From contig NC_135658.1 of NCBI RefSeq assembly GCF_964188315.1, forward strand, positions 2,914,001 through 2,978,000: a DNA stretch of 64,000 bases, written 5' to 3'. Source of the stretch: Podarcis muralis. Taxonomy: Eukaryota. The notes beneath the pieces are model-generated. The model was not told where the DNA came from and searched no databases. It worked only from the letters and a program-made list of their open reading frames with translations. Below are positions 25,010 through 31,010 of this stretch, piece after piece. Position 1 is the first letter of the stretch. Every line of letters starts with the position of its first letter. Both the position numbers and the translations under genes were made by a program.

Positions 25010-25367
25010 AGCAAGGGTGCAGGAAGAAACTCACATGGGCTAAAGCTCAGAATGAGCTCAGACTTGCAAGAAAGGTTAGAAAAATACAATAGGGGTTTTT
25101 CCAGCTATGTTTGATGCAAGAGGAAGAACAAGGATGTAGTAAGTCCTTTGTGTGAAGAAGAAAGAGAACTGTTACAAGCTTGGTGGATCAGGGGAATGCT
25201 GTGGATGCAATATATCTAGATTTTAGCAAGACTTTTGTAAAAGTCCCCCATGCTATTGCTGAGAAGAAGCTTGTATAATATGAGCTAGATAGTGTCACTG
25301 TGAGGTGCATTTGTAGCTGGTTGACTGAACGAACCCAAAGGGTCATCATTAATGTTTCCTCATCATC
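25010..25367 (+). mobile_element. Old CR1 RT fragment, left part
   Basis: ctagattttagcaag (LDFSK) and WLTERTQRVIIN; the reading continues after 30427 (SSWKKVTCEVPQ). Confidence 0.75.
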
Positions 25368-25737
25368 TGTCAGTATGCTGTCAGCGACTCTCAGCTGTTG
25401 CCCAGGAAAGTATAAAGACAAGGGAAAATTTCTTACCATCCTTTTTTATTATTCAGTATTTACAGAGAGAGGTTATACAACCCAGCCTCTTGGATAATGG
25501 CGTTGTACTGGGTGAATCTCTCCCACCCCACCCCTGGTTCTCCCATATGCCCATTAGTCACTTCTACAGCTGCTGCTACATACCCACTGTCTCGGAGTTC
25601 TTTGCTCTCTTACCTTCGGGACTCACTGGTTTCTGGGAGATGGAGGGTCTGGAATGCTTTATAATGACGTGTCAGCCAGGTGTTGCTCTGGCTCTCCCAT
25701 GATTTCGCAACTTTCCTTCTCATCTGCCTCTGAGCTG
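25368..25737 (-). mobile_element. Gypsy 3' LTR, inner end truncated
   Basis: Starts TGTCAG; homologous to 29949-30312; preceded by TSD TCATC at 25363-25367. Confidence 0.8.
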
Positions 25738-26293
25738 CAGGGATCAGGGGTGCCCACTTGAATAATATATGGGGGGCACCTGCCCTGCATAATTGATCAC
25801 ATGACACAGTGCACACGCATCATTTGAATGGCAATGACCATCAACTTAGCAGGGACAGCCCCACCAAATATTTTATTGGGGTGCCAAAGACCTTTTTGCC
25901 CCTAGGAGTTGGTTCCTCTGCCAAGGAGGATGAGACCTCTCTGTTAAGATATTCTGTACCTCTCCCATTTCTCTGGTTATACAAAGGAGAGGAGCACAGA
26001 GTGATCCCTGGAACGCCTCTGAGACAAGAACTCCAGGTCCTTGTGCAGGATCCACAGAGATTACCTAATACTTGCCACTGGGATTTGCGAGATCTCCTCT
26101 CACAGGATTCAGCAATCGTCTCCCAGTTTAAGGGCAACTTGTCTCCCTGAGGGAAAATAGTTTTTCAGTAACTCTTTACACACCATAAATATCACAGGCA
26201 GAATTCCTCTGACAGCAGCACAGGCAGGATCAGCGTTGACCCGGGGAGAAAGCATGTTAGCTTCACAGGCTGTGCCATGAAGTCAGGTAAGTG
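25738..26293 (+). promoter_or_regulatory. OR upstream module 3, including a repeat insertion of about 175 bp shared with module 4
   Basis: Donor GTAAGT at 26287. The insertion at about 25746-25918 is also at about 31277-31450 and, split by an L2, at 62813-63345. Confidence 0.55.
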
Positions 26294-27132
26294 CAAAGGG
26301 CAGCATGAGTCTATCAAGCGCTTTCCTCCAATTGACTTCAGAGGGATTTTCCTCAGTTATGTAAATAAGCTGCCATTCATACTGGGAGACAGAAAGAGAT
26401 GGGATTTAATTTGGAACTTCATATGGGGGGGAGGGTTTGTGCTGCTCAAGAAAACATCTGGTTTCCTGGATCAGGAGTCAATAATCTGGAGGTTGTACTG
26501 CTCTGCTCTATCTTGTGGTTGGGGGTAGGGGTGGGGGTCTGCTTTCCAGAAAGGATTGAAAATTGTGGTGGCCTGCAGTTTTTGCTGCAACATCTGTCTG
26601 GAGTAGGGGGGAAATGTCCCCCATGGTCCTTTCTGCTCTACATTTCTATGATTCTATGATCACAATCCTCTCATCAACTGGATAGTGTGCAAAATGAAGG
26701 ACCTCCATATCAAGGTGTCTTCTCATAAGAGGACATGGGGTGAGACTAGTCCTGTCTTTCCCCAATAATACTACTACAACTAGTGATTTAGATCTACCTT
26801 TTCTAATTTAAATATTGCACTGTAATTGTTATTTCAATTTTTCAGATGAGAAGTTGGGAGACTGAATCTTTGAAAGCCACACTCTTGTGTCCTCCACTCC
26901 ACTTGTTAAAGTTGGGAGACGGCTGGGGACTGATTTTGATGATGGGTTGGGGTGCTCTCTAGCCAGGGTCTACCTACTCAGGTGAGCTGAGGCAGCATTC
27001 AAGACTACACTTCCTTGTTTGAATAGAGGCTCTAAGGAACTTTCTCAATACTTTACAGAATCTGTCAAATCATGTCAGAATAAGAATTTTATGACTTATT
27101 AGAATCATTTCACCGAAAGCTCTTGGCGTGCC

Positions 27133-28107
27133 ATGTCATCCATCCCTGGGTATAATGACAGCATTGTGAGCCACCAAACCTTTGTCCTGATTGGCATCCC
27201 TGGGATGCAAGAGAAGAACTCTTGGATGGCCTTCCCATTGTTTGTGCTCTATGCCTTGACTCTGCTTGGGAACATCATGATCCTCTATGTCATCAAGATT
27301 GACCAAAGCCTCCATGAGCCCATGTACTTCTTCCTTTGCCTGCTCGCCTGCTCTGATCTGGGCCTCTGCATCTCCACCATGCCAACTATGCTGGGGGTCT
27401 ATTGGTTTGACTCGAGAGAAATCCCACTCAATGGCTGCATCAGCCAGCTGTTCTTTATTCACATATTTCAAGAGATGGACTCTGGCATTCTTGTGTCAAT
27501 GGCTTATGACCGGTTCATTGCCATCCGTGATCCACTGAGGTACAGAATACGTCTACCAAATTCAGTCATTGCAAAAATAGCTATAGCTATCTTCTGCAGA
27601 AGTTTCTGTGTCATCTTCCCTTGTCCATTTCTTATTAAACGGCTCCCTTTCTGCCGATCTAATGTACTTTCTCATTCATACTGCCTCCACCCAGACACAA
27701 TGAATTTAGCCTGTTCTGGCACAAAAGTCAACATTTTGTATGGTTTGGTAATGGCCATGTTTACTTTGGGGTTGGATGTTGTGATCATTCTCATATCCTA
27801 TGTCCTAATCCTGAAGACTGTTTTGAGCATTGCATCCCACCAAGAGCGCCTCAAGGCTCTCAACACCTGCGTCTCTCACATTTGTGCTATCTTGATCTTC
27901 TACGTCCCAATGATTGGTGTCACTGTGGTACATCGATTTGGGAAGCACCTTTCTCCCATTGTCCACATGCTGATGGCCAACATATACATTGCGGTCCCTC
28001 CACTTCTTAATCCTGTTGTGTACAGTGTGAAGACCCAGCAAATTCGACAGAGGATTTACCAAACTTTACGTTTTAAAAAAACAGGAGCTGATACCTTTAT
28101 CAAATGA
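27133..28107 (+). CDS. Class I OR51-like receptor (OR3), 324 aa
   Basis: Complete 7TM OR motifs; closest to OR2. Confidence 0.95.
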   Translation: MSSIPGYNDSIVSHQTFVLIGIPGMQEKNSWMAFPLFVLYALTLLGNIMILYVIKIDQSLHEPMYFFLCLLACSDLGLCISTMPTMLGVYWFDSREIPLNGCISQLFFIHIFQEMDSGILVSMAYDRFIAIRDPLRYRIRLPNSVIAKIAIAIFCRSFCVIFPCPFLIKRLPFCRSNVLSHSYCLHPDTMNLACSGTKVNILYGLVMAMFTLGLDVVIILISYVLILKTVLSIASHQERLKALNTCVSHICAILIFYVPMIGVTVVHRFGKHLSPIVHMLMANIYIAVPPLLNPVVYSVKTQQIRQRIYQTLRFKKTGADTFIK

Positions 28108-29086: not shown

Positions 29087-29600
29087 TCATTTGGAAGGGG
29101 TTTTCTGGAGACCTATCTGCATAGCCTCTTCTGCCGGACCATTCCTCATTTGGCTCCCAGGCCTTCTCTCTGGAATGTGTGGCATTTCAAACGGCCTCTC
29201 CTGCAGCCTGATAACAGCTCCCGTCTCTTGCTTCCACCCCTGCAACTGCTGGTCGAGCTTCAATGCCACTTGCATCAGTGCCTCCTGAGAACTGGCTGAA
29301 GGGTCCATTCTTGCCAACTCATCCAGCAGGGTTTCACTCAGCCCTGCACGGTAAATCGCCATCAAGGCTTCCCGATTTTACACTAGCTCCTGCAACAGCA
29401 AACTGAACTCTGTACTGTTCTCCATTACTGAGTTAGACCCCTGCTTCAGCTTCAAAAAATTTCTTGTACATGCAGATTTCTGCTTCGGTTCCTGGAATAT
29501 GGACTCAAGATGAGCCATGAAACTGTCCAATCTCAACAAACAAGGGTGCTGGTTAATCAGTAAGGGGATCACCCAAGGCTGGCAACTCCTTCCAGAAGAT
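29087..29600 (-). pseudogene. Decayed Ty3/Gypsy gag
   Basis: FMAHLESIFQEP...LKLKQGSNSVME...F and IYRAGLSETLLDEL fit the Retrotrans_gag pattern. Confidence 0.75.
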
Positions 29601-29948
29601 TAATTACAAAAAACACACATTCCAGGTCTGTCTATAAATCATCTTGTCTCACCTTGAAGAACATTTACGCATTTGCTTTAAACACAAGGAACTTGGAGGT
29701 CTCTCCACTGAATTTCAATGGGGGAATGGGGCACTGAACACCTCTGAGCTTCTACTCCCAGTCTTCCGAGTTCTGTATTTTGATGATTTATTGTTCTTGT
29801 TAATTGTTTTACGTGTCCTCTTAACAATAAATTTGTTGTAATAGCCATTGAAATAATTCTCCCGGGTTATCAATACTGGCATTCTGCTCCTGCACCTTCT
29901 GTCAGTATTTATGACTTGACCAGCAATTAAAGTTGACTCGGGACGATC

Positions 29949-30427
29949 TGTCAGGATACCATCAGTGACTCTCAGCTGTTGCCCAGGAAAGTATAAAGAC
30001 AAGGGAAGATTTCTTACCATCCTTTTTTATTATTCAGTATTTACAGAGAGAGGTTATACAACCCAGCCTCTTGGATAATGGCGTTGTCCTGGGTGAATCT
30101 CCATCCCCCCTTCTCTCCCACTTGCCCATTAGTCACTTCTATGGGTGCTGCTATGTACCCTCTGTCTTTGAGCTCTTTGCTCTCTTACTTTCAGGGCTCA
30201 CCAGATTCTGGGAGAGGGAGGGTCTGGAATGCTTTCGAATGTTGTGTCAGCCAGGTGTTGCTCTGGCTCTCCCATGATTTCCCAACTTTCCCTCTCATCT
30301 GCCTCTGAGCTGTGACCTTCCTCATACAGGAATTGTAAATCAATACTGTCTTCCTCTTCCTTCTTCCAGAAAGGTTCAGGAAGTGGGGGGCAGTCGCCAC
30401 CATTCCTCCTCTGCCCAGTCCTTGACA
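29949..30427 (-). mobile_element. Gypsy 5' LTR, complete, 479 bp
   Basis: TGTCA...TGACA termini; followed by TSD TCATC at 30428-30432. Confidence 0.82.
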
Positions 30428-31010
30428 TCATCCTGGAAAAAAGTGACATGTGAGGTGCCACAGGTTTCTATTCAGGGCTCGTTGTTGGTCAAGGTCTTGA
30501 TAAATGACTTGGATGAAAGAATTGAGGGGATACTCAATAAAATTGCATATGACACCAAAACCGGGAGGGGTAGCTAATGCCACAGAAGCAGAGGCAGGAT
30601 TTGAGATGAACTTAACATATTGGAGAACTGGCCGCAAACTGACAAAATGAATTTCAGTTTGGACAGATGTAAAGTTCTACATGCAGGCAGGAATAACCAG
30701 GTGCAAAAATATACAGAATGGGAGACACCTGGCTTGCCAGCACCATACCGACAAGCTGGAAGGTGTGAAGAGGGGAGCGACCAAGATTATCAAGGGTCTG
30801 GAAACCAAGCCTTATTTGTGAGGAATGGTTGAGGGAGTTGGGTATGTTTAGCCTGGAACAGAGGAGACTGAGAGGAGATAATAGTAGCCACCTTCATATA
30901 TCTAAAGGGCTGTCACATGGAATTTGGAGCAAGCTTGTTTTCTTCTGCTTCAGGGGGTCAAAAAATAAGGCCGTTTGGATCCCTTCCAACTCCACGAATC
31001 TATGGTTCTA
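30428..31010 (+). mobile_element. Old CR1 fragment, right part
   Basis: INDLDERIEG and RELGMFSLEQRRLRGD; ends in a ctatggttctata-like tail. Confidence 0.75.

What the first reader, a model, noticed from the sequence alone, without database searches (positions are those of the whole stretch)
25363..30432. An entire OR gene sits inside one Gypsy insertion
LTR copies at 25368-25737 and 29949-30427 are bounded by a matching TSD (TCATC), and they split a single CR1 RT reading (…INVSSS | SWKKVT…), so they belong to one insertion. Between them lie module 3, the putative introns, the intact OR3 ORF and its 3' flank, then decayed gag. Pol, the PPT and the inner roughly 110 bp of the 3' LTR are absent, and the junction at 25737/25738 is abrupt. 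OR3 is antisense to the element, an orientation that would preserve introns in LTR-mediated capture. The truncated LTR favours a DNA-level duplication into the element.
Basis: partly seen in the sequence, partly recalled or inferred. Interest (0 to 1): 0.7.

Follow-up and report, generated by a model that had tools for sequence, protein, structure and literature searches.

The report
Smell-receptor gene inside a dead retrotransposon
An intact smell-receptor gene with its upstream region lies between the two terminal repeats of one dead retrotransposon, likely put there by a local DNA rearrangement within its own gene cluster rather than by the element capturing and moving it, so it is a real but fairly ordinary curiosity.

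Summary
The two LTRs (9% apart) are sisters in a 34-row tree, and uninterrupted CR1 copies carry the 5-bp target once, so the outer ends are one insertion. Gag lies on the minus strand; a 324-aa OR51-like ORF with putative promoter and splice motifs replaces the end of gag, pol, PPT and 115 bp of the 3' LTR. Contigs of independent runs labelled as three organisms bridge the left outer junction and the host/gag junction; the LTR/module junction is only borderline bridged. The block starts at the homologue of sequence 840 bp downstream of the element, shares a MITE insertion only with that downstream module, exists once in the genome, and the downstream module has a doubled acceptor/start. That geometry (forward jump, backward jump, local donor) points to a post-insertion DNA rearrangement (gap filling, or tandem duplication plus deletion), not retroposition. 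The element cannot transpose as it stands. Real, mechanistically unsurprising; interest low to moderate.

The parts
24756..25021 (+). 3' flank of OR2, displaced from its ORF (8516-9466) by a nest of LINEs; homologous to OR3's 3' flank up to the CR1 5' junction
25017..25367 (+). Left half of the CR1 fragment (target of the LTR element)
25363..25367 (+). 5-bp target-site duplication, left copy
25368..25737 (-). 3' LTR of the element, lacking about 115 bp at its inner end; junction J1 at 25737/25738 with 0-2 bp microhomology
25745..25920 (.). High-copy MITE with degenerate 8-bp TSD (25737-25744 and 25921-25928); same insertion at 31276-31460 in module 4, absent from modules 2 and 5
25929..27132 (+). 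OR 5' module: palindromic O/E-like site 26144-26154 (motif name recalled), putative donors at 26287 and 26982, putative acceptors ending 26845 and 27102
   Evidence: motifs largely conserved in paralogous modules; not tested on RNA
27133..28107 (+). OR3, intact 324-aa class I (OR51-like) olfactory receptor ORF
28108..28343 (+). OR3 3' flank, 16% different from OR2's; homology ends where CR1 begins in OR2's flank
28344..28411 (.). Single-copy sequence, neither gag nor CR1; likely host 3' flank (continues at 29082-29111)
28412..29075 (.).
29112..29948 (-). Element leader and decayed gag; junction J2 at 29111/29112, upstream of the zinc knuckle
29949..30427 (-). Complete 5' LTR, 479 bp
30428..30432 (+). 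5-bp target-site duplication, right copy
30433..31011 (+). Right half of the CR1 fragment to its 3' end
31269..32830 (+). 5' region of module 4, the likely donor or sister of the block's 5' part; carries two acceptor/start regions in tandem (32640-32745 module-3 type; 32745-32830 OR1/5/6/7 type)

Best explanation
An intact olfactory receptor gene with its upstream module lies between the sister LTRs of one dead Gypsy-type insertion, likely because a local DNA rearrangement after integration joined the left LTR to the gene module that lay just downstream and joined that module's 3' flank back to gag. Shown: one insertion into a CR1; loss of the gag end, pol, PPT and inner 3' LTR; block start homologous to 31269; single copy. 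Inferred order: (1) tandem OR array, MITE in the ancestor of modules 3/4, CR1 into OR2's flank; (2) Gypsy into the CR1; (3) a forward jump J1 (deletion-type) and a backward jump J2 (duplication-type), in one repair or fork-switching event (gap filling) or as tandem duplication plus deletion; (4) the downstream copy's coding part replaced by OR4 of the other clade, leaving a doubled acceptor/start; the second-family solo LTR arrived before or after step 3. The gene likely still works from its own promoter; the element is a passive envelope.
For: Donor is local: the block begins at the homologue of 31266-31269, about 840 bp beyond the right LTR, and 5' module homologues above 62 bp occur only inside this cluster (14 of 16 matches, self included). 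MITE at the same site only in modules 3 and 4, 6.9% apart, against about 20% to other family copies. Module 3a-4a distance 6.1 +/- 1.0% against 8.9 and 8.1% to module 2, and 9.3 +/- 1.5% between the LTRs: compatible with a split at or after insertion. Module 4 joins a module-3-type 5' region to an ORF of the OR5-7 clade (tree) through two tandem acceptor/start regions (scores 116 to module 3 against 33-78; second 78-88 to modules 1/5/6/7 against 28-40). A complete 5' LTR beside a 3' LTR lacking its inner end cannot come out of one round of reverse transcription (established LTR biology), so J1 is post-integration. No second copy of the OR3 flank (1 match) or close copy of the gag remnant (11 other matches, 71-85% over 150 bp or more). 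Introns and upstream region retained. dN/dS 0.36 against OR2 and OR1.
Against: Substitutions alone do not resolve module 3 with module 4: informative sites in the first 5' segment are 32 against 23 and 28 and the fork is open in the tree; the sister claim leans on the MITE. OR3's ORF is 95% like OR2, not OR4, so gene conversion or an extra exchange must be invoked. The doubled acceptor in module 4 is only 80% like module 3 over 98 bp and could be an older local duplication. J2 is placed from one relative (L076). No outgroup locus with the ancestral order was available.
Confidence: 0.8

Rival explanations
1. LTR-mediated capture: reverse transcriptase switched onto an antisense or unspliced RNA covering the OR module, the chimera integrated into the CR1, and a later deletion trimmed the 3' LTR.
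For: Internal ORFs replaced by host sequence between two LTRs with a clean TSD is the structure described for LTR-mediated retrocopies (PMC5131818, passages); antisense orientation would keep introns.
Against: A retroposed copy should land anywhere in 1.5 Gb, yet this one sits within a few kb of its two closest relatives; it holds upstream promoter sequence and a MITE; J1 has 0-2 bp microhomology against a median of 6 bp in that paper; one copy only; an extra deletion is needed anyway.
Confidence: 0.05
2. OR3 arose by unequal crossover between modules 4 and 2 that duplicated the whole CR1-plus-element unit, followed by two deletions removing the inner halves.
For: Module 3 reads as 5' module-4-like and coding OR2-like (133 against 23 informative sites), the order that such a crossover gives; OR3's flank is homologous to OR2's.
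Against: It predicts CR1 in OR3's flank; homology instead stops within 5 bp of the CR1 5' junction and the following 98 bp match no CR1 copy. The two flanks differ by 16 +/- 2%, more than the LTR pair (9%), so OR3's flank looks older than the insertion.
Confidence: 0.08
3. The OR3 block was moved, not copied: excised from downstream by recombination between modules 3 and 4 and re-joined into a break in the element.
For: No second OR3-type ORF and flank remain downstream; module 4 looks like a deletion-type chimera.
Against: Needs a circle or fragment to re-integrate a few kb away with losses on both partners; no direct sign.
Confidence: 0.05
4. Misassembly, or two independent insertions with a chance 5-bp match.
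For: No listed contig spans the whole stretch; J1 is borderline and the right outer junction is not among the listed pieces.
Against: Left outer junction bridged in 4 of 4 runs, J2 and gag/LTR in 4 of 4 runs, OR3-end to second solo LTR in 3 of 4, from 5 studies and 3 organism labels; LTRs are sisters at 98/96 support among 34 rows; empty CR1 sites carry the motif once.
Confidence: 0.02

Closest known systems
Single-copy Pack-TIRs made by transposition-independent gap filling (Tan et al. 2021, PMC8277862; passages seen)
   Same: Single copy, host sequence from nearby in cis, breakpoints inside an already inserted element, duplication after transposition.
   Different: The envelope is an LTR retrotransposon, not a TIR element; the cargo is a whole gene with promoter module (about 2.7 kb without the later solo LTR), while the paper calls Pack-TIR cargo fragmented; one breakpoint is in the terminal repeat.
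LTR-mediated retrocopies (Tan et al. 2016, PMC5131818; passages seen)
   Same: Host sequence replaces part of the internal ORFs between two LTRs.
   Different: Cargo here is unspliced genomic DNA with upstream sequence, antisense, next to its donor, with a truncated 3' LTR and little microhomology; no further copies.
Birth-and-death tandem duplication and gene conversion in vertebrate olfactory receptor clusters (recalled)
   Same: Chimeric modules, patchy conversion (OR3 is 95% OR2 overall but 95-99% OR1 in its 3' half), non-homologous duplication junctions.
   Different: Here both junctions fall in one retrotransposon, so its original TSD brackets the gene.

Membership tests
One LTR-element insertion | Two related LTRs in direct orientation, TG..CA ends, shared TSD, intact empty site elsewhere | tested here: met
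Ty3/Gypsy element | Gypsy-type gag | tested here: met
   Retrotrans_gag E 1e-5; Ty3_capsid only E 0.15
Ty3/Gypsy element | pol order protease-RT-RNase H-integrase | tested here: inconclusive
   pol absent in the window; same-strand protease (L072) and RNase H (L075) in deleted relatives; no full-length relative found; the chromo-integrase in L072 is on the opposite strand and was not assigned to this family
LTR-mediated retrocopy | Cargo is processed RNA (introns lost) | tested here: not met
   Splice motifs and intervening sequence retained as in paralogues; exon structure itself not shown on RNA
LTR-mediated retrocopy | Microsimilarity at both switch points | tested here: inconclusive
   J1 0-2 bp; J2 not assessable, host continuation unknown
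LTR-mediated retrocopy | Both LTRs complete, PPT present, able to act as a non-autonomous element | tested here: not met
   3' LTR lacks about 115 bp and the adjoining PPT region; no further copies
Transposition-independent gap filling (single-copy Pack type) | Single copy with a nearby cis donor | tested here: met
Transposition-independent gap filling (single-copy Pack type) | Element present at the site before the cargo (outgroup with cargo-free element) | not testable with these tools
   No relative's genome held; divergences only compatible
Transposition-independent gap filling (single-copy Pack type) | Envelope is a TIR DNA transposon | tested here: not met
   Envelope is an LTR element: works like a single-copy Pack-TIR but is not one
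Class I (OR51/52) olfactory receptor | Full-length 7tm_4 ORF closest to OR51/52 | tested here: met
   consOR51 E 3e-126, OR52c 7e-105, OR51E2 6e-103, against at best 5e-50 for the other families listed

The most novel reading that the evidence does not exclude
The envelope is not passive: the complete 5' LTR points across gag toward OR3 in antisense and the truncated 3' LTR now abuts OR3's promoter module, so the element would set OR3's silencing or choice probability; the arrangement, shared by three organism labels, would be a kept 'Pack-LTR' olfactory gene, a route by which LTR elements package whole OR transcription units in squamate clusters.
Probability: 0.07. Interest if true: 0.65.

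Novelty: new member of a known kind. Interest (0 to 1): 0.27.

Why it matters
As it stands it is a well-marked worked example: nested insertions with intact TSDs order the events by which one OR paralogue changed place in a cluster, and it warns that 'two LTRs plus a matching TSD around a gene' is not proof of capture by retrotransposition. It would matter more if the LTRs regulated OR3 or if such envelopes were common in squamate OR clusters, since that would tie retroelement remnants to OR repertoire turnover and gene choice. Four literature searches (listings only) showed no title or abstract start describing an OR gene inside an LTR element; that is a weak statement about a partial library.

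Tried and rejected
Full-length relative of the element: not found among 11 other matches to the internal region. Assigning the family to chromoviruses: dropped, the chromo-integrase in L072 is on the opposite strand (note). Self-priming site: no complement of the bases inside the 5' LTR found within the LTR. First Pfam scan of gag was in the wrong frame and blank, repeated. Homologue for the 98 bp between OR flank and gag: none in the genome search, in four other paralogue flanks and the pseudogene, or in 30 kb further upstream; only a borderline match to OR1's flank (shuffle p 0.05); no match to the sequence after the CR1 (p 0.97). A transposase-made deletion at the MITE end: rejected, the old 8-bp TSD is still attached at J1. 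Long reads: none offered; all 6 runs laid (of 24 listed) were contigs. One run lacked cover at 25510-25609 at 95% likeness: a hole, not used. Earlier scan notes: none near this place. The organism was not determined; no absolute dates were attempted.
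Full report
Setting. The window is part of a tandem cluster of seven intact olfactory receptor ORFs, with more paralogues upstream, in a 1.52-Gb genome. OR3 (27133-28107, 324 aa) scores 7tm_4 at E 2e-111 and is closest to OR51/52 structures. The organism was not determined.

The outer ends are one insertion. The repeat at 29949-30427 belongs to a family with 2402 first-look candidates (40 scored); the copies fetched begin TG, end CA and are solo, and 15 of 18 with both ends recognised (of 28 examined) have a 5-bp TSD with at most one mismatch. 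The window's two copies differ at 9.3 +/- 1.5% of 353 sites and are sisters at 98/96 support in a 34-row tree (the other rows were picked by likeness to the right copy or its gag, not sampled at random). The sequence on either side is one CR1: in other CR1 copies the two halves run on with a 5-base overlap and the motif stands once (19 printed, most clear; L085, L091, L095 uninformative).

What lies between. Gag is on the minus strand (Retrotrans_gag E 1e-5) and other loci join the same internal sequence to the same LTR. In the one relative that extends further (L076) a zinc knuckle follows the last shared motif; the window departs exactly there, fixing J2 at 29111/29112. The left LTR lacks about 115 bp at its inner end and is joined at 25737/25738 (J1; 0-2 bp microhomology) to host sequence. 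The host block carries an O/E-like palindrome and two donor/acceptor pairs largely conserved among paralogous modules. Gypsy assignment rests on gag and on same-strand protease and RNase H in deleted relatives; no full-length relative was found.

Is it real? Six of 24 listed runs were laid, all as contigs, from 5 studies and 3 organism labels; the best holder, a possible source, was left out. The CR1/left-LTR junction is bridged in 4 of 4 runs; second solo LTR to gag across J2 in 4 of 4, gag to right LTR in 4 of 4, OR3 end to second solo LTR in 3 of 4. No piece spans everything. Misassembly is unlikely but not excluded for J1.

Where the block came from. Its first base is homologous to 31266-31269, the start of module 4, about 840 bp beyond the right LTR. 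Modules 3 and 4 alone share the MITE at the same site (6.9% apart, about 20% to the rest of the family). Their first 5' segment differs by 6.1 +/- 1.0%, against 8.9 and 8.1% to module 2, but informative sites are nearly even (32, 23, 28), so substitutions alone do not decide it. The ORF is OR2-like (5.1%; 133 against 23 sites) with OR1-like tracts, and OR4's ORF belongs to the other clade. OR3's 3' flank matches OR2's displaced flank up to the CR1 5' junction and then continues as single-copy sequence that is neither CR1 nor gag; the flanks differ by 16%. So OR3 looks like an older paralogue, CR1-free at that site, whose coding region was later homogenised with neighbours. Module 4 holds two acceptor/start regions in tandem, the first most like module 3 and the second like modules 1/5/6/7, the footprint expected if a module-3-type 5' region was joined to OR4.

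Mechanism. J1 links the left LTR to sequence from downstream (a deletion-type join); J2 links the end of the host block back to gag (a duplication-type join). One repair or fork-switching event, or a tandem duplication followed by a deletion, yields both and leaves the original TSD on the outside. Reverse transcription regenerates both LTRs in full (established knowledge), so the truncation is post-integration; a retroposed copy would not be expected within a few kb of its donor; and there is no second copy. I put 0.8 on the local DNA-level event, 0.08 on whole-unit unequal crossover plus two deletions, 0.05 each on capture and on cut-and-rejoin, 0.02 on artefact. dN/dS of 0.36 to OR2 and to OR1 (NG86, 310 codons) fits a working gene but is confounded by conversion; expression was not tested.

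Comparison. It works like the single-copy, cis-donor, transposition-independent gap-filling cases described for TIR elements (PMC8277862, passages) but is not a Pack-TIR. It resembles LTR-mediated retrocopies in outline (PMC5131818, passages) but fails their defining features. Supplements of these papers were not read and may list closer cases. Searches (listings only) showed no report of an OR gene inside an LTR element.

Verdict. Observation confirmed and extended; interpretation supported in its DNA-level form; ordinary cluster turnover with unusually clear markers. Interest 0.27.

Noticed in passing
window 9457-9466 and 24752-24761: OR2's last codons are split by a 15-kb nest of LINEs bounded by a 10-bp direct repeat (likely TSD); OR2 keeps an open frame with a new C-terminus read into the insertion, and its original 3' end resumes near 24762.
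   Followed up: partly
window 32640-32830: Module 4 has two acceptor/start regions in tandem, of two different OR clades.
   Followed up: yes
window 25368-25737 versus 29949-30312: Divergence between the LTRs is patchy: 123 of 125 identical in one segment, 131 of 156 in the next, where the left copy is also further from the family (79% against 86%); possible conversion tract or local acceleration.
   Followed up: partly
window 25737-25744: J1 falls at the outer edge of the MITE's left 8-bp TSD; probably coincidence.
   Followed up: partly
window 36794-40348 and 44640-48460: Two long ORFs (611 and 813 aa, minus strand) with zinc knuckle, protease-like and integrase-like stretches in that order, each apparently lacking RT, between OR4, OR5 and OR6; the first is flanked by near-identical repeats; Copia-like by recalled domain order, not scanned.
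   Followed up: no
window 11261-13749 and 18545-21749: Two related LINE copies in inverted orientation, 82-88% complementary over about 2.5 kb.
   Followed up: no
window 35667-36098: An OR fragment on the plus strand (75% to OR3 over 170 bp) beside the run of N.
   Followed up: no
window 31030-31125: An A-rich dispersed repeat fragment lies between the CR1 3' end and module 4 (14 other matches).
   Followed up: partly
L051, L053, L068, L075, L077: Several of the rare copies that keep internal sequence of this LTR family lie next to ORFs that read like class C (vomeronasal type 2-like) receptor exons, i.e. in other chemoreceptor clusters (family name recalled, not scanned).
   Followed up: no
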